DNA of 64,000 bases from the NCBI GenBank assembly GCA_964448605.1, contig CAYUZV010000001.1:8693-72692 (forward strand), in the 5' to 3' direction. Numbering within the stretch: position 1 is the stretch's first letter; the number at the start of each line of letters is the position of its first letter. A program made the position numbers and the translations under genes. Shown piece by piece: positions 17,057 to 47,567 of the stretch. The notes under the pieces were generated by a model, which saw only the letters and a program-made list of their open reading frames with translations, did no database searches and had not been told where the DNA came from. This DNA comes from Candidatus Woesearchaeota archaeon (lineage in GTDB: Archaea > Nanobdellota > Nanobdellia > Pacearchaeales > GW2011-AR1).

Positions 17057-17506
17057 ATGCCACACCAATGTACAAAATGCGGAGAAATGTATCCTGATGC
17101 ATCTGAAGAGTTGTTAAAGGGTTGTAAATGTGGGAGCAGGTTTTTTTATTATATTAGGCAGGATAAATATGATTCATTACGGGAAGAGTATAAGAAAAAG
17201 ATTGTTGAATTGGAAAAGGCAGATAAAGAGCAGATTGAAAAAGATATTCGTGAGTTGACTGGTTTAGATAAAAAACCTGATAAGCCAGTTGTTTTAGATT
17301 TGGAGAGTGTGAGAGTTTTGGAGCCGGGTAAATTTGAAATTGATTTGATTAATTTGTTTGCGAAATCAAGACCTTTGATTTACAAATTAGAGGAAGGAAA
17401 GTATGTTATTGATTTGGAGAATTCTTTTAAGAAAGGAGAGATTTATGAGAGGGATTATTTTGAAGAAGAGGAGAATTCAGAAGAGGGTGATTTTGAAAAA
17501 ACTTAA
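17057..17506 (+). CDS. Zn-ribbon-containing protein (DUF2072-like) with an acidic C-terminus.
   Basis: N-terminus CTKCGEMYPD...CKCGSRFFYY (CxxC...CxC ribbon). Immediately upstream of the SMC-like gene. Confidence 0.4.
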   Translation: MPHQCTKCGEMYPDASEELLKGCKCGSRFFYYIRQDKYDSLREEYKKKIVELEKADKEQIEKDIRELTGLDKKPDKPVVLDLESVRVLEPGKFEIDLINLFAKSRPLIYKLEEGKYVIDLENSFKKGEIYERDYFEEEENSEEGDFEKT

Positions 17507-17568: not shown

Positions 17569-20433
17569 ATGACATATATAAAAAAATTAGGTATGAAAGG
17601 GTTTAAGAGTTTTGCAAGAGAGACTCCAATTTATTTTGACAGGCATGTTGTTTGCATTGTTGGTCCTAATGGTTCTGGAAAGTCGAATGTTCTTGATGCA
17701 CTTTGTTTTGTTTTAGGAAGATTGTCGATAAAGTCGATTCGAGCTTCAAAAGCTTCGCATTTAATTTTTTCAGGAAACAAACATTATAAACCTGCGAATC
17801 AGGCATATGTTGAAATTGTTTTTGATAATTCTGATAAAACTTTTGCATTGGATAATGATGAAATTGCGATTCGGAGAATTGTTAAAAAAAATGGACAGGG
17901 AGTTTATAAAATAAATGGACAGGTAAAAACAAGGCAGGAGGTTTTGGAGTTGTTGGGGCAGGCAGGAATTGACCCTTATGGTTTTAATATTGTTTTGCAA
18001 GGTGAGATTGAAAAATTTGTTAAGATGCCTGCTGAAGAAAGAAGAAAAGTTATTGAAGAAGTTTCTGGAATTTCTATTTATGAAATGAGAAAAGAAAAGT
18101 CTATGAAAGAATTGGATAAAACAAATGAAAAACTTAAACAAATAAATTCAGTTTTGAGAGAGAGGGCGAATTATATTAGAAATCTTGAGAAGGAGAGAGA
18201 GCAGGCATTAAGATATAAAAAACTTCAGGGTTCTATTAAGAGATATAAGGCATCAATTATTCAGAGAAATATTTTAGACAGGGAAAAAGAGCTTAAGGAA
18301 ATTTTGAAAAATATGGAGGGCAAGAATTCTGATGTGAATAAAAAAGATGAGATTATTATTAAATTCAGGAGAGATATTGGGAATTTGAATAAAAGTGTGG
18401 AAGATATTTCCAAAGAGGTTCAGCAGAAATCTGGTTTTGAGCAGGATTCTCTTTTGAATGAAATTTCTGAAATAAAACAAGACATTGCTGGATTAGGTGC
18501 GAGGAAAGAGAATTATGAGAATAATCTTGTTGAATTAGATAGAAGGAAAGAGAGGTTGAATGTTGATATAAAAAATCTTAATGAGGAGATTGATAGAATG
18601 AGTAAGGAGAAGGGTAGAAATGTTAAAAGGGAATTGGAGGTTAAGAAAAATAAACTTGATGAGTTGGAAGAGACGAAAAGGCAGTATTATCTTATAAGGT
18701 CAAATTTGTCTTCTGTGAATAATCAGATTTCAGATAAGATGAGGCAGATTGCAAAATTAAATAATGAGAGTGATTTTATTTTGAATTCAATTGAGAATCT
18801 TGAAGATGAAATTAAAATAAGGGATGGTTTGGAGGAGCATGAAAAGAAAATTGAGAATTTGAATAAGAAGTTAAAGGTTAGTGAGAAAAAGATTGAAGAG
18901 ATGGAGGAGAGTTTGATGGTTAAGGAAAGAGAGTGTGCTATTAATGGAAGATTGATTGAGGATTCTGAAAAAATTAAGAGCCAGATTTCTGAACTTGATG
19001 TTTGTCCTTTGTGCAAGACAAAAGTTACTAAAGAGCATATTAAAGATGTTATTAGAAAAGTTGATGGAGATATTTCTGGTGCTCGGGAAGTTATTGAGAA
19101 TAATGAAAAAGAAATTAAAAAGATGAATTTTGAAATTGAGAAATTGAAGGAATTTATTGAGAAGGGAAATGAGGAAGTTAAAATTCGAGAGATTTGTATT
19201 GTGAAGATAAGAAATATTCGTGAGAAAAAAGATAGTTTGAGGAGAAATAATGAAGAGATGAAGGCGATTAAGAGCGAGTTGAAGGTTCTTGAAGATAAAA
19301 AGAGAATGTATGAGAATAAAGTTTCTTCAATAAAAATAAGTGAAGAGATGTATGAAAATTTGAAGTTGGAAGTTAGCGAACTGCAGAGGAGTGAGGAAAA
19401 AAATCTTGGAATTGAGATTGCGACAAAACAGAGAGAGGTTGACAGGGCTCGTTTAGCAATAAAGCAAATTGTTCGGGACAGAGAAGAGTTAGTTGAAGAA
19501 TTGAAAGATATAAATGAAAGTTTAGAGGAAAAGGAAAGTGTTGTTGAGGAAAAAGAAGAGCAGGCAGAGATTTTAAAGAAAAAGTATCAGAAAATGTTTG
19601 AAGAGAAAAATAAATTGCAGGACAGGGTTAGGAGTATTGAAAGTGATTTGATGAAAGTTCAGAATGAAAAGAGATTGCTTGAAAATGATATTAATAATTT
19701 GAAGATTTCTTGTGCACAGATTAATGCTAAGATTGATTCTTTGAAAGAGGAGATTGAGGAATTTGGGAAATTTGAATTTTTGAATTTGAATATTGATAAA
19801 CTGAAAGAGAAATTGAGAAATGCAGAGGTTATTTTGGAAAGGATTGGAAGTGTTAATATGAAGGCCTTGGAAGTTTATGAAGGTGTTAAAGAAGAGTATG
19901 ATAAAATTCGGGCGAAGGTTGAACAACTTGATAAAGAGAAAGAGGAGATTTTGAAAGTTATTGAACAGATTGACAGGAAAAAGAGGAGGACTTTTATGAG
20001 GACTCTGAAAGGTGTTAATGAATTGTTTTCAAGGAATTTTTCTCAATTAAGTGATAAGGGAGTTGTTAATCTTGAGGTTCAGGATAAAAAAGAGATTTTT
20101 AATGCAGGGCTTGATATTGTGATTAAAGTTGGTGCTGGAAAATATTTTGATATTACTTCATTGTCAGGAGGTGAGCAGACTCTTGTTGCTTTGTCTTTGA
20201 TTTTTGCAATTCAGGAACATCGTCCTTATAGTTTTTATGTTTTTGATGAAATTGATGCTGCTTTGGATAAAAGGAATAGTCAGAGATTAGCTTATCTTTT
20301 GAAAAAGCATATGAAAGAAGGGCAGTATTTGATTATAACTCATAATGATTCTATTATTTCAGAATCTTCTAATGTTCTTTATGGAGTTAGTATGCAGGAA
20401 GGTATTTCTAAGGTTTTGAGTTTGGAGGTTTGA
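17569..20433 (+). CDS. SMC-family ATPase with a Rad50-like CxxC zinc-hook in place of a hinge.
   Basis: N-terminal Walker A head (KGFKSF...IVGPNGSGKSNVLDALCFVLG). C-terminal signature and Walker B (LSGGEQTLVALSLIFAIQEHRPYSFYVFDEIDAALD). About 700 aa of coiled coil. The mid-coil motif DVCPLCKTKV at roughly nt 19000 replaces a Gly-rich SMC hinge. Confidence 0.8.
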   Translation: MTYIKKLGMKGFKSFARETPIYFDRHVVCIVGPNGSGKSNVLDALCFVLGRLSIKSIRASKASHLIFSGNKHYKPANQAYVEIVFDNSDKTFALDNDEIAIRRIVKKNGQGVYKINGQVKTRQEVLELLGQAGIDPYGFNIVLQGEIEKFVKMPAEERRKVIEEVSGISIYEMRKEKSMKELDKTNEKLKQINSVLRERANYIRNLEKEREQALRYKKLQGSIKRYKASIIQRNILDREKELKEILKNMEGKNSDVNKKDEIIIKFRRDIGNLNKSVEDISKEVQQKSGFEQDSLLNEISEIKQDIAGLGARKENYENNLVELDRRKERLNVDIKNLNEEIDRMSKEKGRNVKRELEVKKNKLDELEETKRQYYLIRSNLSSVNNQISDKMRQIAKLNNESDFILNSIENLEDEIKIRDGLEEHEKKIENLNKKLKVSEKKIEEMEESLMVKERECAINGRLIEDSEKIKSQISELDVCPLCKTKVTKEHIKDVIRKVDGDISGAREVIENNEKEIKKMNFEIEKLKEFIEKGNEEVKIREICIVKIRNIREKKDSLRRNNEEMKAIKSELKVLEDKKRMYENKVSSIKISEEMYENLKLEVSELQRSEEKNLGIEIATKQREVDRARLAIKQIVRDREELVEELKDINESLEEKESVVEEKEEQAEILKKKYQKMFEEKNKLQDRVRSIESDLMKVQNEKRLLENDINNLKISCAQINAKIDSLKEEIEEFGKFEFLNLNIDKLKEKLRNAEVILERIGSVNMKALEVYEGVKEEYDKIRAKVEQLDKEKEEILKVIEQIDRKKRRTFMRTLKGVNELFSRNFSQLSDKGVVNLEVQDKKEIFNAGLDIVIKVGAGKYFDITSLSGGEQTLVALSLIFAIQEHRPYSFYVFDEIDAALDKRNSQRLAYLLKKHMKEGQYLIITHNDSIISESSNVLYGVSMQEGISKVLSLEV

Positions 20434-20674: not shown

Positions 20675-21016
20675 ATGTTTATAAGTGCACAATGTGTCTA
20701 TTTTGTATACAAAATGACTGAATTAATATCTACAAGGGCTCCTAAGGAAGTAATAGAAGAAGTTGATAGATTTGCTAAAGAAAAAGGGTTGGGAAGGACA
20801 GTCTTAGTGAAAATTTTACTTACAAAGGGTCTTGAAAAATTCAAGATTGAATATGCTATTGAAAAATACAGAAAGGGAGAAGTATCTCTTTGGAAAGGAG
20901 CTGATTTAGCAGGAGTTTCTTTATGGGTTTTTATGGATGAGGTTAAAAATAAAAAAATATCTCATTACACATTAGAAGATGCTAAGGAAGATATAAAACA
21001 GGTTTTTGGTAAATGA
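20675..21016 (+). CDS. UPF0175-family antitoxin-like protein.
   Basis: Small protein about 110 aa. Overlaps the downstream PIN-like gene by 4 nt. The UPF0175/DUF3368 pairing is a known TA architecture. Confidence 0.5.
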   Translation: MFISAQCVYFVYKMTELISTRAPKEVIEEVDRFAKEKGLGRTVLVKILLTKGLEKFKIEYAIEKYRKGEVSLWKGADLAGVSLWVFMDEVKNKKISHYTLEDAKEDIKQVFGK

Positions 21017-21525
21017 TATCAGTATGTAATTCGAGTCCATTAATTTATTTAGTAAAACTGAATAAACTAAATTTGCTTAAAAAAATTTATGAGAAAGTTT
21101 TTATTCCTGAAGAGGTTTTTGAGGAAGTTGTTTTAGAAGGAAAAAGATTGAATCAAAAAGAAGTTTTATTAATTGAAAAAGAAATAGGAGAAGGTTTTAT
21201 TGTTGTTAAAAAATCTGGAAGAGTTAAGAAACTAAGGGATTTGTCTCATTTGCATAAGGGTGAGATTTGTGCTATTTCTCTTTGTCTGAATTTTAATGAA
21301 AAAAATATTTTAATTGATGATAAAGAGGCTTATAAGATATGTCAACTTCTTGATTTGAATCCTGTTCGGACGAGTGCTATTTTTATTAGATTTTTTAAGG
21401 AAAAATTAATAGGTTTTGAAGAATATAAAAAATTGCTTATAGATTTGAGTAATGAAGGATATTATATTGATATTGAGACTTTTAATTATCTTTTGAATGA
21501 AGCGAGTAGATATGAGAAGGTTTAA
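21013..21525 (+). CDS. DUF3368-type PIN-domain toxin-like nuclease.
   Basis: N-terminus ISVCNSSPLIYLVKLNKLNLL is typical of DUF3368 PIN-like proteins. An acidic residue lies near the N-terminus. 170 aa. Confidence 0.5.
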   Translation: MISVCNSSPLIYLVKLNKLNLLKKIYEKVFIPEEVFEEVVLEGKRLNQKEVLLIEKEIGEGFIVVKKSGRVKKLRDLSHLHKGEICAISLCLNFNEKNILIDDKEAYKICQLLDLNPVRTSAIFIRFFKEKLIGFEEYKKLLIDLSNEGYYIDIETFNYLLNEASRYEKV

Positions 21526-21549: not shown

Positions 21550-24198
21550 ATGAAAAAGAGTGTATTATTGAGTATATTTGTAATATTAATGAGTTTGAAT
21601 TTTGTATTTGCTGGTTTTGAAGTTGGTGAGCCGTCGCATGAGATTGAGGGTTCTTATGTTTTTGGTCAGTATTTGGAGGGGTGGGTGAATATTAGTTTGA
21701 ATGGAGAGTCAGGTAATTCGCTTTTGACTGCTTTTGATTCTGAAATAACTTTGTATGATTTTTTGAAAAATAGTGATGAGAATTATACTTGTAATCCTTT
21801 TAATTGCAAGAATGATTATATTGGAGAAGATTCAAATGATTATAAGGGTGTGAAAATTGAACCTTATGAAAAGAGTTTGGTGGGTATTGAGTTAAAGGGT
21901 GTTATTGATAGAATTGATGAGTTGAGTTTCAAGGTTGTTCCAGATACATTGGAGTCTTGTTTAAATCCTTTGAAAATAGATTTGCTTGATGATGGTGAGG
22001 TGGAATGGGATGATGCAGATGTTTTGAATGATAGTTTTTGTGATTCTGTTAATCCTGATGGTTGTTTTAATTTAGAAGATTCTGAAGATGAAAGTTCTAT
22101 TTTAGAGGGAGAGATTTATTGTCAGGAGATAAGGTTGGATGTTGCAAAAGGATTTAAAATTGGTGCTGAATTGATTGGAGAAGGTAGTGCTGAAGTTAGC
22201 ATGTCTGTTTCAACTGAAGAAGATTATGAAAAGTGTTCTGTAATTGGGAATGGTGAGATTGGATGTGTTGTTGAATTTGATAGTGAGGTTAAGGATTCTG
22301 AAAAAGCTGAAGTTTGTATGGAGGTTGAAGATTTAGTTGGTGAATTGAGTATAAGATACGAGGATGTTAATCCTTGTGGTTATGTTGGAAGTTATTCGCA
22401 TGATTTTCAGATTTTTGCTAAACCTCTGAAGTATGCTCCTTTAAAAGAATTTTTCTTTAATGAAACTTCATTAGGAATTGATTTAACAGATTATGTTGAG
22501 GATTATGTTTTGATGAATTATGAGGGAGATTGTGGTGAGGGCTGTTTTATTCCTATTTCTTTTTCAGGAATTTCACAAAATGTTATTTTAAGTGATTTGA
22601 AACTTTTTTACAAATCAGAAGGAATTACTATGAATGGTGAATATTTTTATGATATTGAAATGAAGAATTTTACAATTGATTCAGATTTTATTAAACTTGA
22701 TTTAGAGCATGGTGAGTTTGAAGTTACTTCAAGTGATTTGGTTTTTGAGTTAGGAAGTTCAAAGATTTTTGAAGAAGATTTGATTTTTAGCGAGGGTTCT
22801 GGAATCTTTGATATTATTCCTTCTGAAGTTCCTGCTTTGGTTCCTGTAACTTTTGTTGCTGTTACTAATGGTTCAGTAAATAATACTTTTGAGTGGGATT
22901 TTGGAGAGGGTACTAAAAAAATAACTCTTTCTAATAAAGTAGTGCATACTTATCCAAAAACAGGAGATTATACAATTAATCTTGATGTTGGAGGTTCAAG
23001 CAAATCTGTTGAAATAAAAGTTGTTTCTCCAAAGGGTTCTATTGTAAAAAAAATTGGTGAGTTGAGAGATAATATCGAGGATATTGAGGGAAAGATTGAT
23101 GAATTTGATTCATGGATAAAACACGATTTGGTTCAAAGATTGAATTTTGAAGAGATTAAGGGTGATATTGATGAACAGGAGTTAGAGTATAATGTTGAGA
23201 TTAGTGAGGACAAGGCAGTTGAGATTATGACTGCTCTTTATGATTTGAAAGTTCCTGAGGATTTAAGGACAAGTGTTATTATAAATAATGTTGATTTTTT
23301 GCAAGATGATGAAAGAATTGATTTTGCTGTTTTGTCAGAAATAGGTGCAGGTGATATGAATCGGGATTATGTTAATTCAATAAATAGATGGGTTGATAAT
23401 AATCTTGAAATGAAAGTTGAGTCTAAGACCTATTCTCTTGTTTATAATTCTGAAGAGAGTGATTTTGTTTCCCATATTAAGGTTTCTTTGATTCCTAAAA
23501 ATGATTTGAAAGATGTTTATGTAGTTTTGGATGGGAATTCTGATAAAATTACTTCTAAGAAAGTTTTTCAGGGTAAAGGGAATAATTTGTTTAAGGAGTT
23601 AGATTTAGAAGAGAGTTTTGAATTTGAGTTTATTTATCCTGGAAGAGTTGATTTGGGCAGTATTCCTGTTTATGTTGTTCCTGATTCAAGTCAGTTGAGT
23701 GTTATTGATGTTGATGTTTGCAATAATAATGGTGTTTGCGAGGAGGGTGAGACAAATAAGAATTGTCCTAATGACTGCAAGAAATGGTTTAGTACTTTTG
23801 TTATTTTAGGAGTGCTTTTTTTTATTGCTCTTATTGTTTATATTATTTTGCAGGAATGGTATAAAAGGAATTATGAGAAGCATTTGTTTAAGAATAAGAA
23901 TCAGTTGTTTAATCTTGTTAATTTTATGAATATTTCTTTAAAGCATGGTTCTAAGAAAAATACTATTTTTGATAAGTTGAAGGGAGTTGGTTGGACAAAA
24001 GAGCAAATGAATTATGCTTGGAGAAAATTGCATGGCAAGAGAACTGGAATGTGGGAGATTCCTTTGTTTAAATGGTTTGAGAATAGAGAAGTTAAAAAGG
24101 AATTGGCTCAGAGGAATGTAAATCATAAAAACTCTAATAAAGGTTTGAAAAATATCAAGGGTTCTGGATTTAAAGGAAGACATATTAATACTAAATAG
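21550..24198 (+). CDS. Large secreted/cell-surface protein with signal peptide, PKD-like domain, C-terminal TM anchor and cytoplasmic tail of about 110 aa.
   Basis: Signal peptide MKKSVLLSIFVILMSLNFVFAG. PKD-like motif WDFGEGT...HTYPKTGDYTINLDV. Acidic, Cys-containing extracellular region. TM helix FSTFVILGVLFFIALIVYIIL near the C-terminus. Confidence 0.6.
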   Translation: MKKSVLLSIFVILMSLNFVFAGFEVGEPSHEIEGSYVFGQYLEGWVNISLNGESGNSLLTAFDSEITLYDFLKNSDENYTCNPFNCKNDYIGEDSNDYKGVKIEPYEKSLVGIELKGVIDRIDELSFKVVPDTLESCLNPLKIDLLDDGEVEWDDADVLNDSFCDSVNPDGCFNLEDSEDESSILEGEIYCQEIRLDVAKGFKIGAELIGEGSAEVSMSVSTEEDYEKCSVIGNGEIGCVVEFDSEVKDSEKAEVCMEVEDLVGELSIRYEDVNPCGYVGSYSHDFQIFAKPLKYAPLKEFFFNETSLGIDLTDYVEDYVLMNYEGDCGEGCFIPISFSGISQNVILSDLKLFYKSEGITMNGEYFYDIEMKNFTIDSDFIKLDLEHGEFEVTSSDLVFELGSSKIFEEDLIFSEGSGIFDIIPSEVPALVPVTFVAVTNGSVNNTFEWDFGEGTKKITLSNKVVHTYPKTGDYTINLDVGGSSKSVEIKVVSPKGSIVKKIGELRDNIEDIEGKIDEFDSWIKHDLVQRLNFEEIKGDIDEQELEYNVEISEDKAVEIMTALYDLKVPEDLRTSVIINNVDFLQDDERIDFAVLSEIGAGDMNRDYVNSINRWVDNNLEMKVESKTYSLVYNSEESDFVSHIKVSLIPKNDLKDVYVVLDGNSDKITSKKVFQGKGNNLFKELDLEESFEFEFIYPGRVDLGSIPVYVVPDSSQLSVIDVDVCNNNGVCEEGETNKNCPNDCKKWFSTFVILGVLFFIALIVYIILQEWYKRNYEKHLFKNKNQLFNLVNFMNISLKHGSKKNTIFDKLKGVGWTKEQMNYAWRKLHGKRTGMWEIPLFKWFENREVKKELAQRNVNHKNSNKGLKNIKGSGFKGRHINTK

Positions 24199-24246: not shown

Positions 24247-24897
24247 TTGTTTTATATGGTTTTTAAAGTATTGACAAATTTTACAAAGAGGATGTTTAAT
24301 TCGCTTTTTAGTCAGAGGAAAGAGATTTCATTAGGTTTTTATGGTCCTCCAAATGGGGGTAAAACTACTTTAGCTAATCGTATTTGTAAGGATTGGACTG
24401 GTGAGGAGATTGGTAAAGTTAGTAAAATGGCACATGAGACAAGGAAAGTTCAGTTTAAGGAAGAAGTTGAAATTAAGTATAAGGAAAAATCTCTGAAATT
24501 TAAACTTGTGGATACTCCTGGAATTGCTACGAAAATTGATTATGAGGATTTTATGAAGTTTAAGATGAAGAAAAAGCAGGCACAGAAAAGGGCTAAGGAG
24601 GCGACACAAGGAATTGTTGAATCAATTAAATGGCTTGATGATATGGATGCTGTTATTGTTGTTGTAGATGCTACTGAGAATCCTTATTCGCAAGTTAATA
24701 TTACCATGGTTGGCAATTTGGTTGCTCGGAAGATTCCTGTGCTTGTTGTTGCAAATAAGATAGATTTAAGAAAGGCGGATATTAAAAAAATTGAATCTGC
24801 TTTTCCTGATTATGATGTGATTGGAATTTCAGCTAAATATGGAAAAAACATGGACGAGTTTTATGAGTCTGTATTTAAGTTAGCTAAAAAAGTTTAA
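24247..24897 (+). CDS. Small GTP-binding protein (P-loop GTPase).
   Basis: G1 GPPNGGKTT, G3 DTPG, G4 NKIDL. True start may be a downstream Met near 24292. Confidence 0.6.
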   Translation: MFYMVFKVLTNFTKRMFNSLFSQRKEISLGFYGPPNGGKTTLANRICKDWTGEEIGKVSKMAHETRKVQFKEEVEIKYKEKSLKFKLVDTPGIATKIDYEDFMKFKMKKKQAQKRAKEATQGIVESIKWLDDMDAVIVVVDATENPYSQVNITMVGNLVARKIPVLVVANKIDLRKADIKKIESAFPDYDVIGISAKYGKNMDEFYESVFKLAKKV

Positions 24898-24921: not shown

Positions 24922-25341
24922 TTGATTATAGGTATAAAAGAGATGAAAATGGGAAAGAATAAGTTTAGAAAAGGATTGACATTGCACTTTGTGCCTTTTT
25001 CAGAAATATCCGGGCTTGATAGTGTGGATAGGATAAAGAAACTTTTGAGAATTGTTTTAGATAATAAATTGATTGTTCTTCAGGGTCGTTTGAGAGCAGA
25101 AGAGGAAACTCGTTTGATTGAAGATACTATGGTTATGATTGATAATATTAAGGGATTCAAAGGTGTTGAACTTGCTGTGATAACTCCTGACCAGGCTGAA
25201 GAGAGTTTTTTTAGTAAGTTTAAAAGTGGGCTTGCGAATATGTTAACTGGACAGCAAAATGCTTTGACGATTATAGGACCTGCAACAATTGTTAAAGAAA
25301 TGAAAAGAGACCCTTCTAAGCTTGAAGTTATGATGAGGTGA
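24922..25341 (+). CDS. Conserved archaeal hypothetical protein (DUF2073-like), adjacent to the GTPase.
   Basis: 139 aa with no motif. Gene order GTPase then small conserved protein is recurrent in archaea; this is recalled, not verified. Confidence 0.3.
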   Translation: MIIGIKEMKMGKNKFRKGLTLHFVPFSEISGLDSVDRIKKLLRIVLDNKLIVLQGRLRAEEETRLIEDTMVMIDNIKGFKGVELAVITPDQAEESFFSKFKSGLANMLTGQQNALTIIGPATIVKEMKRDPSKLEVMMR

Positions 25342-26264: not shown

Positions 26265-26282
26265 ATTTTGTTTTTATTTTGG

Positions 26283-26747
26283 ATGGTTGAAAAAAAATAT
26301 GATATAATGGAATTTATGCCTGATTATTTTCATTATAGGGATAATGGGTTGGGTGAATTAGCTCTCATGGCTGCTGTTTCAATAAATTCTTATGGAAGAG
26401 ATACTTCTACAGATATTCGTCCTGTTATTAGGTTGGGAAGAATCATGCAGGTTTCAACTCAATCTGATGAGGATTGTCCTTATGAATCTGGAGGTATTCC
26501 TCTTAAAGATGATATTAATTTGGGTTGTTTTATGTATGATGTTTTTAGTTCATTAGGTAAAAGATATGAAACTGCTGATGAAATCATTGAGGAAACAAAA
26601 AAGATATCATTATCTTTGTTAGATTTTCAAAGGAGTGATAGGAATCAAAGAAAAGATTTAATTGATTTTTGCACTAATCTATCTCAAAAGGCTGAATCCT
26701 GGTGGCATTGGGAAAATCCAAATGGTTTCAGAAAATATATTGCTTGA
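26283..26747 (+). CDS. Hypothetical protein, first of two tandem paralogs sharing an identical promoter and 5' end.
   Basis: Begins MVEKKYDIMEF. The ORF track starts at an in-frame TTG at 26268. Confidence 0.4.
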   Translation: MVEKKYDIMEFMPDYFHYRDNGLGELALMAAVSINSYGRDTSTDIRPVIRLGRIMQVSTQSDEDCPYESGGIPLKDDINLGCFMYDVFSSLGKRYETADEIIEETKKISLSLLDFQRSDRNQRKDLIDFCTNLSQKAESWWHWENPNGFRKYIA

Positions 26748-26781
26748 GTAATCTTTATAAATAATTTTGTTTTTGTTTTGG

Positions 26782-27186
26782 ATGGTTGAAAATAATTTAG
26801 ATATTTATCCAGAGAGATTTGATTTGGAAGATGGAAGGTTTTCTTTTCTTTTTGCTTCAGTAGGTTGTAGTATTGAGGGTTATTTGAATGGGCAAGATGT
26901 TGATTATAAAGATTTGGAAAGGGCAGGAAATATTTTAAAAGATTTTGGAGAGAGTGATTCAGAAAGTTTTTATTTGGAATTTTTATCAAATATTATTGAG
27001 GAGTGCGAAGATTCTGAAATTAATTATAGGCATGTGAGAGATTATGTTTTTGGAAGAGGTTTAGATTTTTTAAAATTTGATAGATTAGAAGATGATTCTA
27101 AGGAACGTTTAAGGGATTTTTCAATTGTTTTATCAAGAAAAGCAAGAGAATATAGAAATTATTATTTTAAAGGCGTTAGTTTGTGA
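26782..27186 (+). CDS. Hypothetical protein, second tandem paralog.
   Basis: Begins MVENNLDIYPERF. The same 42-nt upstream and start sequence as the first paralog, with 1 mismatch. Confidence 0.4.
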   Translation: MVENNLDIYPERFDLEDGRFSFLFASVGCSIEGYLNGQDVDYKDLERAGNILKDFGESDSESFYLEFLSNIIEECEDSEINYRHVRDYVFGRGLDFLKFDRLEDDSKERLRDFSIVLSRKAREYRNYYFKGVSL

Positions 27187-29021: not shown

Positions 29022-31082
29022 CTATTTCTCAGCACTCTGTTCTTTCTTTTGTCTCTCTAAAAAATTTCTTATAAATTCTTTGTTTTTTTCATAATCAATT
29101 ACCTTTTTTATTTCATAAACCTCTCCTTCACCAATCTCTTTTTTATCTGCTTTTATTTCAGAGATTCCTTTTTTGTAAGATTCTTTTGTTACTAAGATTT
29201 GTTTATCAGATGCATCTGCTAATCTCTTTGCAGTGCTTATAAAATTGCCTAATGCTGTAAATTTTAATTTTTTATTTTCTATTTTGCTTACAATATCTCC
29301 TGAATTTATTCCAATCCCAAATTCAAACTTGTCATTGAATTTTTTATTGTGTTCTTTTAAGAAAAGTGCTATTTTTTCAGCACATTTTGCTGCGACTCCT
29401 TCATTTTTGTTTGATTTTGTCATTACAGGACTGAAAATCATATATAAATAATCTCCTTGTTCATAAATCGCTCCTTTGTTTTTGTAAACACATTCAACTG
29501 CTTTTTCCAAACTTTTTTTAGAATTATCATTTATTTTATTTTTTATTTTTAAAACAATTGCTACTGCCTTGTTTTTATCTCCTTTTGCAACTAATCCTTG
29601 TTCTGCTTGATTTGGTGCTTTTAGAGTTTCTTTTGTTTTTACAGATGTTTTGTTTTTTTTCTTTTTAAAAAAAGGATATGCAAATGATTTTTTCTTAAAT
29701 ATATTTCTGAATAGGAATAGTGTTCCTGCTCCAAGAATAAGAATGAAAAAAATCCAGACAATTGGTGTTTTTAGTGCCATTGAACCTGTTTCTTTAATGT
29801 CTCTTACACTAACTGCATTTCCAGTTAAAACAACTCCTCCTTGGTTTAGTTCGTTTTCTCCATCACTTATTCTTATATTATATTCTTCTCCTGAACCTGT
29901 TAATTTGAATTCTTTGCTGTTTCCTAATTCAAGTTCAACTTTTTTTACAAAAGGTTTGCCATTTAATTCTATTTGAATGTCTTTTTGGTAAGGTATGTTT
30001 CCAATGTTTTTGACAATTAAGCTATTGTTAATTAATTCAAAAGAAGCTATTTCTTTTTCATTTATGTAGAATTTTTTTATATTGTTTACATCTTTGCTTG
30101 ATGCTTCTATTTCATAATATCCTGATGTTTGATTGAATGGTATTTTGAAAAATACTGTTTCGTCTGATTGGACTATTTTTTCAAATATTCTTTCAGATTG
30201 TGAGTTTCTTATAATTACAGAAATTTCGTCTGGAATTAGGTTTCCAGTTTGGTCTAAAAGTATTGGTTTGAATTGGAGTTCTTCTCCAGGGTTAATGTTT
30301 TGATTATTTAATGCGATGTCTGCTTCTGTTAGTATCTGAAAGATTTCCAGATTTGCCATTGCTATTCCCTCGCTTGCTCTTGTTCCTGAAACTTGCTCGT
30401 AAACAAGTGCATCTATTCGATATTCTCCTGCCGGAGATTCATAAGGAATTTGAATATCTACTGAAAAAAAACCTTCGTCTACTTTTCCATAAAATTTTCC
30501 AGCTTCAATATCAGGAGTTATTGAATTTGTTGTTTCTTCTGTTTGATTTGTTTGATTGTTTTCTTCCTGGATTTCAGGTTCTTCTGTGATTGTTTCTAGA
30601 ATAGTTAAAAGAGGAATTGTTACTTCAACATTTCCATTTGCTGGAGCTCCATTTATTTTTTTTGCATTTCCTGAGATTGTTAGAGTTTCTCCAGGATTTG
30701 CATAAAATGATTCTGTGTCTAAATAAACTTCTAATGCATTTGAGATTTTGAATTTTCGGCTTTCTTGTGATTCTTGGTCATACTCTGTGTAGAGGTGACA
30801 TTCTCCGTTTGCTTCATTTATTGTATGAAAATTTAAAGGTAATTTAATTTCGACTATTCCCTCTTCTGAAGGGAGTAGATTAAAACTTATTACATTAGTG
30901 CCAGTGCATATTAAATCAGTTTTAATTAAGTGTCCTTCTTTTATTAAGTCTACATTTACTTCAACATCAATTCTATCACCGAGATTGTAAGTTGGCTGAA
31001 TATTATCATAGTAAATTCCTGCCTGTATAAACTGGATTACTAAGGACAAGATTATAATTATTAACAAACTTCTCTTTTTCAT
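29022..31082 (-). CDS. Receptor-like membrane protein. Signal peptide, extracellular domain of about 430 aa, one TM helix, and an intracellular class III nucleotidyl-cyclase-homology (CHD) domain that looks degenerate.
   Basis: Signal MKKRSLLIIIILSLVIQFIQAG. TM helix TPIVWIFFILILGAGTLFLF. C-terminal region aligns by eye to the CHD consensus: AVAIVLKIKN vs VxxLFADIxGFT (first metal Asp replaced by Lys), QGDYLYMIF vs IGDAYMVAF, FEFGIGINSGDIV vs LRIGIHTGPVV, KFTALGNFISTAKRLAD vs EYTVIGDTVNLASRLE. Confidence 0.5.
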   Translation of the reverse strand: MKKRSLLIIIILSLVIQFIQAGIYYDNIQPTYNLGDRIDVEVNVDLIKEGHLIKTDLICTGTNVISFNLLPSEEGIVEIKLPLNFHTINEANGECHLYTEYDQESQESRKFKISNALEVYLDTESFYANPGETLTISGNAKKINGAPANGNVEVTIPLLTILETITEEPEIQEENNQTNQTEETTNSITPDIEAGKFYGKVDEGFFSVDIQIPYESPAGEYRIDALVYEQVSGTRASEGIAMANLEIFQILTEADIALNNQNINPGEELQFKPILLDQTGNLIPDEISVIIRNSQSERIFEKIVQSDETVFFKIPFNQTSGYYEIEASSKDVNNIKKFYINEKEIASFELINNSLIVKNIGNIPYQKDIQIELNGKPFVKKVELELGNSKEFKLTGSGEEYNIRISDGENELNQGGVVLTGNAVSVRDIKETGSMALKTPIVWIFFILILGAGTLFLFRNIFKKKSFAYPFFKKKKNKTSVKTKETLKAPNQAEQGLVAKGDKNKAVAIVLKIKNKINDNSKKSLEKAVECVYKNKGAIYEQGDYLYMIFSPVMTKSNKNEGVAAKCAEKIALFLKEHNKKFNDKFEFGIGINSGDIVSKIENKKLKFTALGNFISTAKRLADASDKQILVTKESYKKGISEIKADKKEIGEGEVYEIKKVIDYEKNKEFIRNFLERQKKEQSAEK

Positions 31083-31121
31083 AGTTAATTAAAATAAGAG
31101 GTATATTTAAAGGTTGCGAAG

Positions 31122-32048: not shown

Positions 32049-33995
32049 TTATTGATTTGGTGTTCCTGACATTCGGCTTCCGCCTCCTGGAATTTCTCCA
32101 CCTAATTCCATTGGCAGTGTATGGAATCCTGCTCCGTATGTTTGGTGATGTATTGATGGATTTATTGTTCCGTGTCCTCCATAATATGGTCCGAAAGATG
32201 CCATTGCCTGATTCCAGAAAGGACCTGCCATTCCAGAGTATATTGGTGAACCTCCACTTTCTAATGTATAAATAAATGGGCTTGTTTGGAAATGCTGGAA
32301 AAAATTTCCACCTTCAAAAATCCTTTTACCCTTGAATCCACCTTTTTTTAATTCTTCTAAAATATCTTTCATTGGAAGATTTCCCATTCCAGGGGGGAGG
32401 TCTGTGTGTGTTGAACCAAAATTGTCATTGTAGTGGAGGTGTTTTACAAATGGTGCAATTTCCTTTGTCTCTTTTGTAATTTGTTCAGGACCAAAACCTT
32501 GTTTTCTCATCATAGAAATGTGAGAGGTGTCCCATGTGGCTCCAATTAATCTTTTTGCTGCTGCTTCTGCTTCTTTTTTTGATTTACCTTGCTTGATTAA
32601 TTTGTCTTGGAAATTTTTTCTTGTTTTTTGGATTAATTCTTTTAATTCTTTTCCTGATGAAAGAGCATATCCGTAAAGTGGATTTTCAACACTCAGTATT
32701 GGTGCTTTTTCTCCGTATTTTTCATAAGCATGAAGTGCAGTATTTGCCAGAGTTTCACTTGATTTTTCATTTGTGAATTTTTCTATTGGGACGAATTGTT
32801 GGGGAATTGGTATACTTCCAAAACCTTCCAGAGTTTCATCAAATAATTGAGATTGTTTTAAAATAATTTCAGGTTTTCTTTTTCTGTATTCTTGAGGGTT
32901 ATTATATTGTAAATTAAACTCTTCTTCAGAATTTTTATTCCATTTCCTTTGTATTACCTTTAAATAGTCTCTTACTTTTACTACTTTTCCAGTCTTAGGG
33001 TCTTTTATACCTTCTCCTGTTTGAGGGTTTCTTAATAAAGGGTCATCTAATTCACTAAATCTTGCAGCTTTTTCAAAGGTATTCTGCAAACTCATTTGAA
33101 CATTTTCTAAAAATCTTTCTGCTCTGTCTAATTCTTTTAATGCAGGTTGATAATATTCTTGTTCTTCTGTTGTTATTTTTTCACCCTTTGATACTTTTTC
33201 TAAATAAGGGATTAATTGAGGTTGGACTCTTCGTATTATTTCATCTGCCTCTTTTTTATAAAAATCAATTTCCCGAATATTATTCCTCCATTGGCTTGTA
33301 TTTACCATTTTTAATCTTCTTTCTGGGTCAAATATTTGTCCTTTTGCTTTTTTTCCTTCTAAATTTGTTTCTTCTGGGAAATAAGTGTAATCTCTTTCTA
33401 ATGCAGTTGGTTTTCCTGTTTGTTGGTCAATTACAACTAATCTTCCTATTTCAGGACCTTTTCCTTTTTTTTGTTCTGGAATTAATTCTGTTCCAGGAAG
33501 TTCGTGAGATGCATGGACTGTTACAGGCATGTTTCCTTTTGGACTTAGCTCTTGTGCTCTTGCTATTATTGTTTTAAATTGTTCTTCTGCTGATTCTCTA
33601 TTTTGCTCTGACCATCCTTGCTGTGTGATTCCAGAAGGTTCAATTAGAGGTGCATGAAGTGTTGATTCTGCTCCTGTTAATTCATTTAATCTTTTAATTT
33701 CATTTAAATGTCCTTTGGGCATCATTTCAAAAACTTCAGGGTTGATTACAGAAACTTCAGTTGTTTTCATTCCTTGATTAAGTAGTTTAGAAACTTCTTT
33801 TAATTGATTAGAGGTTTGAATTGAAGTTGTTCCTCCCATTTCTCCAACTGGAACTCTGTAACCCATAAAGTTATAACTAGGGTCAAGAAGATAAGTTGTG
33901 CCTGGATAAATAGATTCATATGATACCATCTTTTTATTAAAAGGTTTGGATTGTTTATATATTTTTGGGAGTAGATTATAGAAATATTTAAACAT
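32049..33995 (-). CDS. Large uncharacterised protein with a divergent xylose-isomerase-like / endonuclease-IV-like TIM-barrel split by an insertion of about 300 aa, plus a G/P-rich C-terminal tail. Last gene of the five-gene operon.
   Basis: By-eye correspondence to AP-endonuclease-2 / sugar-phosphate-isomerase TIM-barrel motifs: YRVPVGEMGG (~VGAHVSAAGG), TLHAPL, VTVHASHE, TWDTSH (~DTCH), VKHLHYNDNFG...PPGMGNLPMKDILEELKKGGFKGKRIFE (~HLHLND...GEG.I.........GY.G....E). C-terminal tail GGEIPGGGSRMSGTPNQ. No overall family match recognised. Confidence 0.4.
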   Translation of the reverse strand: MFKYFYNLLPKIYKQSKPFNKKMVSYESIYPGTTYLLDPSYNFMGYRVPVGEMGGTTSIQTSNQLKEVSKLLNQGMKTTEVSVINPEVFEMMPKGHLNEIKRLNELTGAESTLHAPLIEPSGITQQGWSEQNRESAEEQFKTIIARAQELSPKGNMPVTVHASHELPGTELIPEQKKGKGPEIGRLVVIDQQTGKPTALERDYTYFPEETNLEGKKAKGQIFDPERRLKMVNTSQWRNNIREIDFYKKEADEIIRRVQPQLIPYLEKVSKGEKITTEEQEYYQPALKELDRAERFLENVQMSLQNTFEKAARFSELDDPLLRNPQTGEGIKDPKTGKVVKVRDYLKVIQRKWNKNSEEEFNLQYNNPQEYRKRKPEIILKQSQLFDETLEGFGSIPIPQQFVPIEKFTNEKSSETLANTALHAYEKYGEKAPILSVENPLYGYALSSGKELKELIQKTRKNFQDKLIKQGKSKKEAEAAAKRLIGATWDTSHISMMRKQGFGPEQITKETKEIAPFVKHLHYNDNFGSTHTDLPPGMGNLPMKDILEELKKGGFKGKRIFEGGNFFQHFQTSPFIYTLESGGSPIYSGMAGPFWNQAMASFGPYYGGHGTINPSIHHQTYGAGFHTLPMELGGEIPGGGSRMSGTPNQ

Positions 33996-47318: not shown

Positions 47319-47427
47319 AAGGACTACAAAGTGTTACACTGGTTAGAAATTAGTTATAAAATAATAACGAAAAAATCATAATCACTAACACAAAACTTTA
47401 AATCATCAAAAGGACACAGAAATATAT

Positions 47428-47508
47428 GCCGCAGTCGCATAATGGTATTGCACCAGATTGCTAATCTGGACCCTTCGGGGTGCGTAGGTTCGATTCCTGC
47501 CTGCGGCG
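47428..47508 (+). tRNA. tRNA-Ser (anticodon GCU), type II with long variable arm. No encoded CCA.
   Basis: Manually folded. Acceptor GCCGCAG/CTGCGGC. D-arm GCAT-AATGGTA-TTGC. Anticodon stem CCAGA/TCTGG with loop TTGCTAA. Variable arm ACCCTTCGGGGTG. T-arm GTAGG-TTCGATT-CCTGC. Discriminator G. Followed by a T-rich tract. Confidence 0.8.
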
Positions 47509-47567
47509 TTTTTATTTTAAATTCATTAACTTTAAATAATCTATATATTTTTGAATTTAATAAAAAG

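What the first reader, a model, noticed from the sequence alone, without database searches (positions are those of the whole stretch)
29022..31082. Single-pass receptor with an intracellular class III cyclase-homology domain that lacks a canonical metal-binding Asp
The protein has a signal peptide and a ~430-aa extracellular region with beta-rich, Ig/CARDB-like character. It then has one TM helix (encoded around nt 29690-29760) and a ~170-aa cytoplasmic domain. That domain aligns block by block with adenylyl/guanylyl cyclase catalytic domains (GDYLYMIF; FEFGIGINSGDIV; KFTALGNFISTAKRLAD...ILVTKESY). The first catalytic Asp of the FADIxGFT block is Lys (VLKIKN), and the transition-state Asn is Ser. 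This suggests a pseudo-cyclase or a cyclase with altered chemistry. Receptor-type cyclases are rare in archaea, especially DPANN-like lineages.
Basis: inference. Interest (0 to 1): 0.55.

Follow-up and report, generated by a model that had tools for sequence, protein, structure and literature searches.

The report
Archaeal membrane receptor with dead cyclase domain
This gene encodes a conserved, undescribed surface receptor of tiny Woese-/Pacearchaeota-type archaea: four macroglobulin-like domains outside the cell are joined through one membrane helix to an inside domain with the fold of a cAMP/cGMP-making enzyme, which lacks the residues needed to make them and has a conserved lysine-lined pocket instead.

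Summary
ORF 29022-31082 (-) encodes 686 aa: signal peptide, acidic all-beta ectodomain, one TM helix (aa 440-458), and a basic cytoplasmic class III cyclase-homology domain (CHD).

Four tests support the CHD:
- Pfam PF00211 scores above its curated cut-off.
- The family profile hits the cyclases Cya2 and CyaB in the PDB.
- hhalign matches a canonical cyanobacterial cyclase.
- An AF2 model (pLDDT 87) has only class III cyclases among its top 50 Foldseek hits.

The ectodomain is four macroglobulin (MG) domains, as in alpha2-macroglobulin and complement. It has no thioester.

Asp1 is Lys512 and the transition-state Asn is Ser616. Among 268 relatives, none has Asp at position 512 and none has the full D,D,N,R set. 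The second Asp and the Asn column vary. The phosphate-contacting positions stay basic, and a K-I-K-N-K loop is nearly invariant.

The family is large: 315 clusters (50% identity) at E<=1e-30. All members with a source name are 'hypothetical', and it is confined to Woese-/Pacearchaeota MAGs. It has no conserved signalling neighbour and no second CHD.

Best reading: a receptor-type pseudo-cyclase that binds an anionic ligand, not a cNMP synthase. It is a new variant of a known kind, of moderate interest.

The parts
29022..31082 (-). Complete ORF, 686 aa plus stop: receptor-type CHD protein
   Evidence: The family consensus MKKR supports the ATG at 31082. The database copy P0001 is called 11 codons shorter.
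31104..31111 (-). TTTAAATA, a TATA-box-like element about 26 nt upstream of the ATG. It suggests the gene has its own promoter and a leaderless or short-leader mRNA (inference from consensus only).
   Evidence: read directly from the sequence
31020..31082 (-). Signal peptide, aa 1-21 (MKKR, hydrophobic core, ...IQA|G)
   Evidence: Ala21 is invariant in the family
30720..31019 (-). MG-like beta-sandwich 1, aa 22-121, with invariant Cys59 and Cys95 (probable disulfide)
   Evidence: AF2 model pLDDT 86; Foldseek to A2M/complement; invariant residues
30342..30710 (-). MG-like beta-sandwich 2, aa 125-247. It carries a disordered, acidic, poorly conserved insert (about aa 162-192, nt 30507-30599).
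   Evidence: insert: pLDDT <50, 21% identity, net charge -9
30063..30332 (-). MG-like beta-sandwich 3, aa 251-340 (the Pfam MG2 hit covers aa 265-331)
   Evidence: PF01835, 37.8 bits against a cut-off of 32.8
29829..30047 (-). MG-like beta-sandwich 4, aa 346-418, membrane-proximal and the best-conserved ectodomain module (63% identity)
29709..29765 (-). Transmembrane helix, aa 440-458 (PIVWIFFILILGAGTLFLF). It is unusually conserved (69% identity; Trp443 invariant; small-residue G-A-G motif).
29607..29708 (-). Juxtamembrane segment and linker, aa 459-492. A conserved R-N-x-x-K-K-K-S-F-A-Y-P motif (Ser466 invariant) is followed by a variable, Lys-rich, Pro-containing linker. There is no coiled-coil or signalling helix.
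   Evidence: pLDDT <50 at the start of the CHD model
29094..29606 (-). Class III cyclase-homology domain, aa 493-663, with canonical topology b1-a1-b2-b3-a2-b4-b5-a4-b6-a5-b7-b8
29532..29555 (-). V-L-K-I-K-N-K-I (aa 510-517), in place of the F-x-D-I-x-G-F-T metal/phosphate loop. K512 occupies the first metal-Asp position.
29025..29093 (-). C-terminal amphipathic helix, aa 664-686 (invariant Phe670, Phe674, Arg677). It is an addition to the canonical CHD.

Best explanation
The gene encodes a type I single-pass membrane protein that is a conserved, apparently single-copy component of Woese-/Pacearchaeota (GTDB Nanoarchaeota) cells. Outside the cell, four macroglobulin-type beta-sandwich domains form an acidic arm that binds or senses something conserved. 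The arm has no thioester or bait region, so it is not a protease trap. A strongly conserved TM helix and juxtamembrane motif connect it to a cytoplasmic domain with the complete fold of a class IIIb nucleotidyl cyclase. This domain has lost the two-metal catalytic centre. The first metal Asp is Lys in the whole family, the second Asp is dispensable, and the transition-state Asn column is unconstrained. The positions that contact the triphosphate in real cyclases stay basic (K605, R/K620, K644/K647). The former metal loop has become a nearly invariant K-I-K-N-K. The most likely mechanism is therefore a receptor-type pseudo-cyclase. The CHD would dimerise as CHDs do and use the remodelled, lysine-lined pocket to bind an anionic ligand without metal and without cyclising it. 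Candidates are a nucleoside triphosphate, another polyphosphate, a lipid head group, or a partner protein. This would couple the state of the ectodomain to a cytoplasmic binding event rather than to cNMP synthesis. Shown here: architecture, fold, residue substitutions, family-wide conservation, distribution, and lack of conserved partners. Inferred: dimerisation, ligand binding, and absence of catalysis.
For: CHD homology and fold:
- PF00211 scores above its gathering score.
- The family profile hits Cya2 2w01 (E 1.2e-4), 6fht and CyaB 3r5g.
- hhalign to a canonical GAF-GAF-PAS-CHD cyclase gives probability 94.6%, E 6.6e-8.
- The AF2 model has pLDDT 87 and canonical topology.
- The top 50 Foldseek hits are all class III cyclases, E down to 4e-11 over about 190 columns.

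Loss of the catalytic set, across 268 members:
- Position 512 is K211, R13, N12, S11, H6, E3 and never D. No conserved acid lies anywhere in 506-517.
- Position 544 is D in only 171.
- Column 616 is S64, V38, P33, T32, I30, N29.
- 0 of 268 members carry D,D,N,R.

The pocket is still under selection. K514 (237/268), N515 (236), K619 (237), K/R620 (259), K644 (238) and K647 (233) are among the most conserved columns. The CHD is as conserved (60% identity) as any part of the protein.

No cNMP system is in view:
- There is no second CHD in the window or in 359 kb of related loci.
- No cNMP-binding, GAF or PDE protein occurs among the 40 other window ORFs scanned with Pfam; about 20 further ORFs were read by eye only.
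- The only recurrent neighbour is a divergently transcribed class I tRNA synthetase, in 24 of 31 loci.

The ectodomain is a four-MG array. The AF2 model has pLDDT 86, Foldseek gives E about 1e-14 to E. coli A2M, C3, C4, C5, A2ML1 and CD109, and Pfam MG2 matches.
Against: - Nothing here measures activity or binding.
- The placement of Asp1 rests on one profile-sequence alignment of moderate local confidence plus the predicted secondary structure. It is, however, robust to a shift of up to 3 residues.
- The strong conservation of the former active-site loops would also be expected of an enzyme with altered chemistry.
- Nanoarchaeal enzymes with 'radical' active-site substitutions have proved active before (N. 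equitans RNA polymerase, PMC8204694).
- Lys-richness is partly a composition effect of a 30% GC genome.
- Only 64 kb of this genome and about 10 kb per relative were inspected, and about 20 of the window's roughly 60 ORFs were judged by eye rather than scanned. cNMP effectors or a partner CHD could lie elsewhere.
Confidence: 0.6

Rival explanations
1. It is a working nucleotide cyclase, or related nucleotidyl-transferase, with non-canonical chemistry. Lys512/Lys514 would replace metal A or stabilise the transition state, and Asp544 would hold a single metal. The protein would then be a true receptor cyclase producing a second messenger.
For: The former catalytic loops are the most conserved parts of the domain. 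The residues at the phosphate-binding and base-specifying positions are retained (K605, R620, K647, E541, T609). There is precedent for active nanoarchaeal enzymes with radical active-site changes (PMC8204694).
Against: The presumed single-metal ligand Asp544 is itself replaced by N, E, G, S or K in 36% of members and in about half of the divergent subfamily. The transition-state Asn column is unconstrained. To my knowledge, no active class III cyclase lacking the first Asp is known. No cNMP effector or PDE was seen in the window.
Confidence: 0.15
2. It is one half of a heterodimeric cyclase, like mammalian C2 or the sGC beta subunit, and pairs with a second CHD protein that supplies the missing catalytic residues.
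For: Asymmetric CHD heterodimers with one degenerate half are well known (established knowledge). Foldseek hits to mammalian cyclase are to chain B of 1azs, 1cs4 and 1cul. From memory, that chain is the C2 half, which lacks the metal Asps.
Against: This domain lacks residues from both halves (Asp1 and Asn), so a partner would have to supply everything. No second CHD was found in the 64 kb window or in 359 kb of related loci. One locus per genome was found in the species-representative scan. No conserved neighbour of that kind exists.
Confidence: 0.05
3. It is mainly a structural envelope or adhesion protein. The MG arm acts as a spacer or adhesin on the cell surface, and the cytoplasmic CHD serves only as a dimerising anchor or plug with no ligand-dependent signalling.
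For: MG/Ig-like arrays are common in surface and adhesion proteins. The gene is embedded among housekeeping genes, not signalling genes. These symbiotic archaea have very few signalling systems (PMC10249747 notes the absence of two-component systems in Nanoarchaeota).
Against: A mere anchor would not need nearly invariant polar and basic residues at the former active site. Nor would it need a TM helix and juxtamembrane motif conserved at 69%. An adhesin facing diverse hosts would be expected to vary more than about 50% identity with 27 invariant ectodomain positions.
Confidence: 0.15
4. The cyclase resemblance is spurious: a chance or low-complexity match in a Lys-rich protein.
For: The Pfam match covers only profile positions 60-156 and scores just above threshold.
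Against: Four independent lines agree: Pfam, the PDB profile search, hhalign, and a reciprocal phmmer search from a canonical cyclase. In addition, a high-confidence model has a full-length fold match, with the 50 best PDB hits all class III cyclases.
Confidence: 0.01

Closest known systems
Bacterial class IIIb adenylyl/guanylyl cyclase catalytic domains (Cya2 of Synechocystis 2W01, CyaB of P. aeruginosa 3R5G, CyaC of S. platensis 1WC0; the GAF-GAF-PAS-CHD cyclase in locus L032)
   Same: Same fold and secondary-structure order. Shared sequence blocks are GD at the b2-b3 hairpin, GIGINxGE in b4, F-T-A-(I/L)-G-(D/N) in b5 with the class IIIb Thr, the Arg of a4, and the Lys pair in b7-b8.
   Different: The first metal Asp is Lys throughout the family, the second Asp is not fixed, and the transition-state Asn is lost. 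Glu replaces Lys at the purine-specifying position, with a one-residue deletion. Helix a1 is 11 residues shorter, and there is an extra conserved C-terminal helix. The domain occurs in archaea and is fused to an MG ectodomain.
Single-pass receptor cyclases (mammalian natriuretic-peptide receptor GC-A, e.g. 9BCV/9BCS; trypanosomal receptor adenylyl cyclases)
   Same: The layout is the same: extracellular domain, one TM helix, C-terminal cytoplasmic CHD. The GC-A cyclase domain is among the Foldseek hits.
   Different: Those receptors have periplasmic-binding-protein-type ectodomains, helical or coiled-coil transducer segments (and a kinase-homology domain in GC-A), and complete catalytic residues (established knowledge). 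Here the ectodomain is four MG domains, the linker is short, Lys-rich, Pro-containing and not helical, and the catalytic set is incomplete.
Degenerate CHD halves (the C2 domain of mammalian adenylyl cyclase, sGC beta subunit)
   Same: A CHD fold lacking metal-binding Asp residues but keeping phosphate- and base-contacting residues. 1azs_B, 1cs4_B and 1cul_B are in the top hits. That chain B is the C2 domain is from memory.
   Different: Those domains work only with a complementary catalytic half encoded in the same protein or by a paired gene. No such partner is seen here, and this domain also lacks the Asn that C2-type halves contribute.
Alpha2-macroglobulin / complement C3-C5 / CD109 thioester-containing proteins
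   Same: A tandem array of macroglobulin (MG) beta-sandwich domains. Pfam MG2 matches above threshold. Foldseek gives E about 1e-14 over 450-500 columns to E. coli A2M, C3, C4, C5, A2ML1 and CD109.
   Different: There are only four MG domains. There is no thioester motif (no C-x-E-Q), no bait region, and no TED, CUB or receptor-binding domains. The protein is membrane-anchored, with a cytoplasmic CHD.

Membership tests
Class III nucleotidyl cyclase catalytic domain (CHD, Pfam PF00211) | Significant match to the family profile above the curated threshold | tested here: met
   24.5 bits (full protein) and 27.3 bits (C-terminal part) against a gathering score of 21.9, although only profile positions 60-156 of 183 align. 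The family profile hits the PDB cyclases 2w01, 6fht and 3r5g. hhalign gives 94.6%. Reciprocal phmmer is positive.
Class III nucleotidyl cyclase catalytic domain (CHD, Pfam PF00211) | b1-a1-b2-b3-a2-b4-b5-a4-b6-a5-b7-b8 fold with the b4-b5 arm | tested here: met
   AF2 model with pLDDT 87 and this order of elements. The top 50 Foldseek PDB hits are all class III cyclases, TM 0.55-0.73 (one at 0.49). This is a predicted model, not an experimental structure.
Class III nucleotidyl cyclase catalytic domain (CHD, Pfam PF00211) | Two metal-binding Asp residues (end of b1 and the b2-b3 hairpin) | tested here: not met
   Asp1 is K512; 0 of 268 members have Asp there, and no conserved acid lies in 506-517. 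Asp2 is present in the query (D544) but in only 171 of 268 members.
Class III nucleotidyl cyclase catalytic domain (CHD, Pfam PF00211) | Transition-state Asn-Arg pair in helix a4 | tested here: not met
   The Asn position is S616 and the column is variable (S64, V38, P33, T32, I30, N29). The Arg position is R620 (R139, K120).
Class III nucleotidyl cyclase catalytic domain (CHD, Pfam PF00211) | Substrate-specifying pair (Lys-Asp/Thr for ATP; Glu-Cys/Gly for GTP) | tested here: inconclusive
   E541 aligns with the Lys/Glu position after a one-residue deletion. T609 aligns with the class IIIb Thr (T in 236 of 268). This is a hybrid pattern; E541 is conserved only in the close subfamily.
Class III nucleotidyl cyclase catalytic domain (CHD, Pfam PF00211) | Head-to-tail dimer with active sites at the interface; cyclase activity | not testable with these tools
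   No multimer prediction or model coordinates were available, and no biochemistry.
Receptor-type (single-pass) nucleotide cyclases | Ectodomain, single TM helix and C-terminal cytoplasmic CHD topology | tested here: met
   Two hydrophobic segments only (signal peptide and aa 440-458), acidic outside and basic inside.
Receptor-type (single-pass) nucleotide cyclases | Helical or coiled-coil transducer element between membrane and CHD | tested here: not met
   The linker (aa 459-492) is Lys-rich, contains Pro470 and Pro490, and is variable in length and sequence in the family. The residues just before the CHD have pLDDT <50. No dedicated coiled-coil predictor was run.
Alpha2-macroglobulin / thioester-containing protein family | Tandem MG domains | tested here: met
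   Pfam MG2 scores 37.8 bits against a cut-off of 32.8. The AF2 model shows four beta-sandwiches, with Foldseek E about 1e-14 to A2M, C3, C4, C5 and CD109.
Alpha2-macroglobulin / thioester-containing protein family | Thioester domain with the CGEQ motif and a bait region | tested here: not met
   There is no C-x-E-Q motif. The only ectodomain cysteines are C59 and C95. No Pfam TED or A2M domain matches, and the ectodomain ends after the fourth MG domain.
Pycsar-type or other defence-system cyclases | Match to defence-system cyclase models, with an effector gene adjacent | tested here: not met
   PADLOC gives no hit at E <= 1. Neighbours are housekeeping genes.

The most novel reading that the evidence does not exclude
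The lysine-for-aspartate cyclase fold is not a dead enzyme. On this reading it is a new functional type of CHD. It could be a metal-independent, or single-metal and lysine-assisted, nucleotide-transforming enzyme. Alternatively it could be a dedicated transmembrane sensor of cytoplasmic NTP or polyphosphate. Either way, it would be the principal surface-to-cytoplasm signalling device of Woese-/Pacearchaeota, for example reporting host contact in organisms that otherwise lack recognisable signal-transduction systems.
Probability: 0.15. Interest if true: 0.8.

Novelty: new variant of a known kind. Interest (0 to 1): 0.55.

Why it matters
Woese- and Pacearchaeota are abundant, uncultured archaea with small genomes, thought to live as symbionts, and how they sense the outside world or a host is essentially unknown. 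An early census found essentially no class III cyclase domains in archaea (PMC1183210). This study shows that a cyclase-fold receptor is a widespread, vertically conserved gene in this lineage. Only about one member in ten is flagged by Pfam, and every member that carries a source name is labelled 'hypothetical'.

The catalytic centre has been replaced family-wide by a conserved basic pocket. That makes a clean test case for how a signalling enzyme is converted into a non-catalytic or differently catalytic module. It also provides a concrete target for biochemical and structural work in DPANN archaea, including a soluble 200-residue domain.

Tried and rejected
- **NCBIfam:** no family matches; only a sub-threshold, irrelevant enoyl-CoA hydratase hit.
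- **PADLOC defence models:** nothing, so a Pycsar-like role is rejected.
- **Single-sequence PDB search:** only a weak complement C4 MG2 hit. The family profile was needed to reach the cyclases.
- **Alpha2-macroglobulin-like protease trap:** rejected. There is no thioester motif, no bait region and no TED.
no Pfam match; MG2 matches instead.
- **Weak chromodomain-like hits to the C-terminal segment** (E 0.06-0.4): judged to reflect the normal last beta-strands of a CHD plus a Lys-rich helix, not a chromodomain.
- **Conserved operon or partner:** none. The only recurrent neighbour is a divergently transcribed PF00579 tRNA synthetase (24 of 31 loci) and ThrRS (11 of 31). In the window that synthetase lies 31 kb away.
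- **Second CHD or paralogue:** none in the window or in 359 kb of loci.
- **cNMP effectors:** none among the 40 other window ORFs scanned with Pfam. About 20 obvious housekeeping ORFs were read by eye only.
- **Source organism through P0001:** the cluster has one unnamed NCBI member, and the contig is not on record.
- **Literature searches:** four searches found no description of this family. Shenoy & Visweswariah 2004 is not held.
- **'Diapherotrites', 'bacterium' and 'Dojkabacteria' labels on three loci:** treated as probable mis-binning. Two of the three (L019, L020) carry the same tRNA-synthetase neighbour as the other loci. L017 is a 3-kb contig with no informative neighbour, so its label was not tested.
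Full report
**1. Observation**

The ORF at 29022..31082 (minus strand, 686 aa) exists as described. A hydropathy scan finds two hydrophobic segments only. One is an N-terminal signal-like segment. The other is a helix at aa 440-458, PIVWIFFILILGAGTLFLF, encoded at nt 29709-29765.

The part between them (aa 22-439) is acidic, with pI 4.4 and net charge -36. Everything after the helix is basic: the linker has pI 10.5 and the domain pI 9.4. This fits an outside-N, inside-C type I topology.

A TTTAAATA element lies about 26 nt upstream of the ATG. It suggests the gene has its own archaeal promoter, but this is a consensus-level inference only.

Neighbouring genes are archaeal: S19e, L39e and L31e lie downstream, and the window contains EF-1alpha, SMC and form III RuBisCO-like genes. 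The DNA is about 30% GC.

**2. Is the cytoplasmic domain a cyclase-homology domain?**

Yes. Six independent tests agree.

- Pfam Guanylate_cyc (PF00211) scores 24.5 bits with the whole protein and 27.3 bits with the C-terminal 217 aa. The curated cut-off is 21.9 (E = 2e-5 and 3e-6). Only profile positions 60-156 align.
- A profile of 31 family members finds the guanylyl cyclase Cya2 (2w01, E 1.2e-4), a Cya2-derived phytochrome fusion (6fht) and CyaB (3r5g) in the PDB sequence set.
- hhalign of that profile against a canonical cyanobacterial GAF-GAF-PAS-CHD cyclase, picked up as locus L032, gives 94.6% probability and E 6.6e-8 over 138 columns.
- An AlphaFold2 model of aa 488-686 has mean pLDDT 87. 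Its order of elements is exactly that of a CHD, b1-a1-b2-b3-a2-b4-b5-a4-b6-a5-b7-b8, plus one extra C-terminal helix.
- Foldseek of that model against the PDB returns class III adenylyl/guanylyl cyclases in all 50 top places. E-values go down to 4e-11, with about 190 aligned columns and TM 0.55-0.73 (one hit at 0.49).
- In the reverse direction, the canonical L032 CHD used as a phmmer query against 1190 ORFs from 359 kb of related loci plus the window recovers every family member, and only family members, at E <= 0.014. The next hits are two unrelated window ORFs at E 0.12 and 0.44.

The best hits are all class IIIb enzymes, and the family keeps the class IIIb F-T-A-x-G motif.

**3. Catalytic residues**

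The hhalign alignment gives three mappings:

- V510-L-K512-I-K-N-K-I517 aligns with F-S-D-I-R-S-Y-T. The first metal Asp is therefore Lys512.
- Y-E541-(gap)-Q-G-D544 aligns with D-K-Y-I-G-D. Glu541 sits at the purine-specifying Lys/Glu position, and the second metal Asp is present.
- K-F-T609-A-L-G-N-F-I-S616-T-A-K-R620-L aligns with E-F-T-A-I-G-D-G-V-N-L-G-S-R-L. This places the class IIIb Thr, puts Ser at the transition-state Asn position, and keeps the Arg.

The model's b1 ends at Ile513, which is consistent with that placement.

More importantly, they hold for the whole family. I aligned 268 members to the profile.

| Position | Canonical role | Residues seen in 268 members |
|---|---|---|
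| 512 | first metal Asp | K211, R13, N12, S11, H6, E3; never Asp |
| 544 | second metal Asp | D171, N40, E26, G9, S8, K4 |
| 616 | transition-state Asn | S64, V38, P33, T32, I30, N29 |
| 620 | Arg | R139, K120 |

Columns 506-517 contain no conserved acidic residue, so the conclusion survives a shift of the alignment by a few residues. In the more divergent subfamily, position 544 is Asp in only about half of the members. No member has the D,D,N,R set.

The positions equivalent to the phosphate-contacting residues of real cyclases stay basic:

- K605 is equivalent to the b4-b5 Arg.
- Position 620 is R or K.
- K644 and K647 are equivalent to the b7-b8 Lys.

The former metal/phosphate loop has become a nearly invariant K-I-K-N-K, with K514 in 237 of 268 members and N515 in 236. 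These columns are among the 30 most conserved of the domain.

The domain as a whole is 60% identical to the query on average. That is higher than the ectodomain mean of 50%.

**4. The ectodomain**

Pfam finds an MG2 domain at aa 265-331, with 37.8 bits against a cut-off of 32.8. A single-sequence PDB search had already hinted at complement C4.

An AF2 model of aa 22-440 has pLDDT 86 and is all-beta. It has four sandwich domains and one disordered, acidic, poorly conserved insert at about aa 162-192. Foldseek places it with E. coli alpha2-macroglobulin, complement C3, C4 and C5, A2ML1 and CD109, at E about 1e-14 over 450-500 columns. The low TM-scores reflect different inter-domain angles.

There is no C-x-E-Q thioester motif, and there are no further A2M-type domains. 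The only ectodomain cysteines are the invariant pair C59/C95. So this is an MG-domain arm, not a protease trap and not CARDB.

The membrane-proximal MG domain (63% identity) and the TM helix (69%; Trp443 invariant, G-A-G motif) are unusually conserved. So is the juxtamembrane motif R-N-x-x-K-K-K-S-F-A-Y-P, with Ser466 invariant.

The rest of the linker is Lys-rich, contains prolines and varies in length. There is no coiled-coil transducer of the kind found in other membrane cyclases.

**5. Family and distribution**

A word-indexed search found 186 relatives. The 120 listed are full-length proteins of about 620-820 aa, 44-65% identical to the query. Every one that carries a source name is called 'hypothetical protein', from Pacearchaeota, Nanoarchaeota or unclassified archaeal MAGs. 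Only 12 of the 120 carry a precomputed PF00211 hit.

An exhaustive profile search of 1.84 billion representatives with the cytoplasmic domain alone found 315 clusters (50% identity) at E <= 1e-30, 571 at <= 1e-10 and 1123 at <= 1e-3. Among the 150 listed hits, about 110 are full-length proteins of 600-850 aa with the domain in the C-terminal part. The roughly 40 shorter ones are probably fragments.

A pattern-limited scan of one genome per GTDB species gave 30 loci in 30 genomes. Twenty-seven are labelled Woesearchaeota, Pacearchaeota, Nanoarchaeota or 'archaeon'. Two of the three deviant labels ('bacterium', 'Dojkabacteria') sit on contigs carrying the same neighbouring tRNA synthetase as the rest, so they are probably mis-binned. 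The third, a 3-kb 'Diapherotrites' contig, has no informative neighbour.

**6. Context**

In 24 of 31 loci the gene is transcribed divergently from a class I (PF00579, Tyr/Trp-type) tRNA synthetase. In 11 loci a ThrRS lies beyond that. Downstream genes differ from locus to locus.

In the window the orthologous synthetase is 31 kb away, at 62214-63320. The gene instead lies between a small membrane protein and ribosomal protein genes.

There is no conserved signalling partner. There is no second CHD in the window or in the held loci, and no PADLOC defence match. Among the 40 other window ORFs scanned with Pfam there is no cNMP-binding, GAF or phosphodiesterase protein. About 20 further ORFs were read by eye only. 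This absence is weak evidence, because the window is only a fraction of the genome.

**7. Interpretation**

The shown facts are these:

- a receptor-like topology;
- a complete CHD fold of class IIIb ancestry;
- family-wide loss of the two-metal and Asn machinery;
- family-wide retention or gain of basic residues exactly where the triphosphate sits in real cyclases;
- strong purifying selection on those loops.

From established knowledge of class III cyclases, both Asp residues are needed for two-metal catalysis. A homodimer of this protein therefore cannot assemble a canonical active site. It also lacks residues from both halves of an asymmetric dimer.

The variability of Asp544 and of the Asn column among orthologues argues that metal-dependent catalysis is not what selection is preserving. 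The invariance of the K-I-K-N-K loop and of K619, K644 and K647 argues that the pocket itself is still used.

I therefore favour a receptor-type pseudo-cyclase whose remodelled pocket binds an anionic ligand without cyclising it (confidence about 0.6). Candidate ligands are an NTP or another polyphosphate, a lipid head group, or a partner protein. Dimerisation and transmission through the conserved TM and juxtamembrane segment are inferred.

The rivals are:

- an enzyme with altered, lysine-assisted chemistry (0.15);
- a mainly structural surface protein whose CHD is only an anchor (0.15);
- a heterodimer half (0.05);
- a spurious match (refuted).

Three caveats apply. Nanoarchaeal RNA polymerase is active despite radical active-site substitutions (PMC8204694). 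Lys-richness is partly compositional in a 30% GC genome. No activity, binding or dimer model could be tested here.

**8. Comparison with known systems, and novelty**

The protein works like a single-pass receptor cyclase in layout. It is a member of the CHD superfamily by sequence and fold. It fails the catalytic-residue tests that define an active class III cyclase, and it lacks the transducer helix of known membrane cyclases. Its ectodomain belongs structurally to the MG-domain world of alpha2-macroglobulins but lacks everything that defines a thioester protein.

An early census stated that archaea essentially lack class III cyclases, apart from a few diverged and probably inactive ORFs (PMC1183210). 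A 2023 review of archaeal nucleotide messengers discusses archaeal adenylyl-cyclase candidates only as class IV/CYTH proteins and describes no archaeal class III enzyme (PMC10249747). Four full-text searches found no description of this family.

I rate it a new variant of a known kind: a lineage-specific MG(x4)-TM-pseudo-CHD receptor family. Interest is moderate (0.55). A specialist would not be astonished by a degenerate CHD as such. But a widespread, highly conserved, unannotated receptor-like family in DPANN archaea, with a systematically re-engineered active site, is a worthwhile and directly testable target.

Noticed in passing
window 62214-63320 (+) versus 29022-31082 (-): The PF00579-type tRNA synthetase that sits head-to-head next to this gene in 24 of 31 related genomes is 31 kb away in this genome (78% identical to the L001 copy). 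The two genes still point away from each other, so about 31 kb of housekeeping genes has come to lie between them through rearrangement.
   Followed up: partly
window 17057-17506, 17569-20433, 24247-24897, 24922-25341: The origin-associated proteins OapC and OapB (Pfam PF09845, PF09846), an SMC ATPase and an MMR_HSR1-type GTPase cluster together. A replication origin may lie in a nearby intergenic region (about 16.5-17.0 kb or 25.3-25.7 kb).
   Followed up: no
window 20675-21016 and 21013-21525 (+): A UPF0175 (antitoxin-like) gene overlaps by 4 nt a 170-aa ORF with no Pfam match. This is probably a toxin-antitoxin pair.
   Followed up: no
window 21550-24198 (+): An 882-aa secreted, acidic, Cys-rich protein has a PKD domain, a C-terminal TM helix and a basic cytoplasmic tail. 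It is a second single-pass surface protein in the window and is otherwise unannotated.
   Followed up: no
window 26268-26747 and 26767-27186 (+): Two tandem ORFs both begin MFLFWMVE... and have no Pfam match. They appear to be tandem paralogues of unknown function.
   Followed up: no
window 47427-47509 (+): tRNA-Ser(GCT), the only tRNA or Rfam hit in the window, overlaps the mechanically called start (47442) of the pyruvate:ferredoxin oxidoreductase ORF. The real start of that gene must be further downstream.
   Followed up: no
window 53847-57371 (+): An 1174-aa pyruvate phosphate dikinase / PEP synthase-type protein has Pfam domains ending near aa 800. This leaves a C-terminal extension of about 375 aa with no match.
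   Followed up: no
window 31050-31082 (-): The identical database protein (P0001, NCBI) is called 11 codons shorter (675 aa), which removes most of the signal peptide's n-region. The family consensus MKKR supports the ATG at 31082.
   Followed up: partly
window 32049-33995 (-): A 648-aa protein with a C-terminal xylose-isomerase-like TIM barrel (AP_endonuc_2) recurs within a few kb of the receptor gene in 3 related loci (L018, L024, L031) as well as here. The significance is unknown.
   Followed up: no
window 29673-29708 (-), aa 459-470: The juxtamembrane motif R-N-x-x-K-K-K-S-F-A-Y-P is nearly invariant (Ser466 in 60 of 60 members). This is more conserved than expected for a simple stop-transfer sequence. 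It may be a docking or modification site.
   Followed up: no
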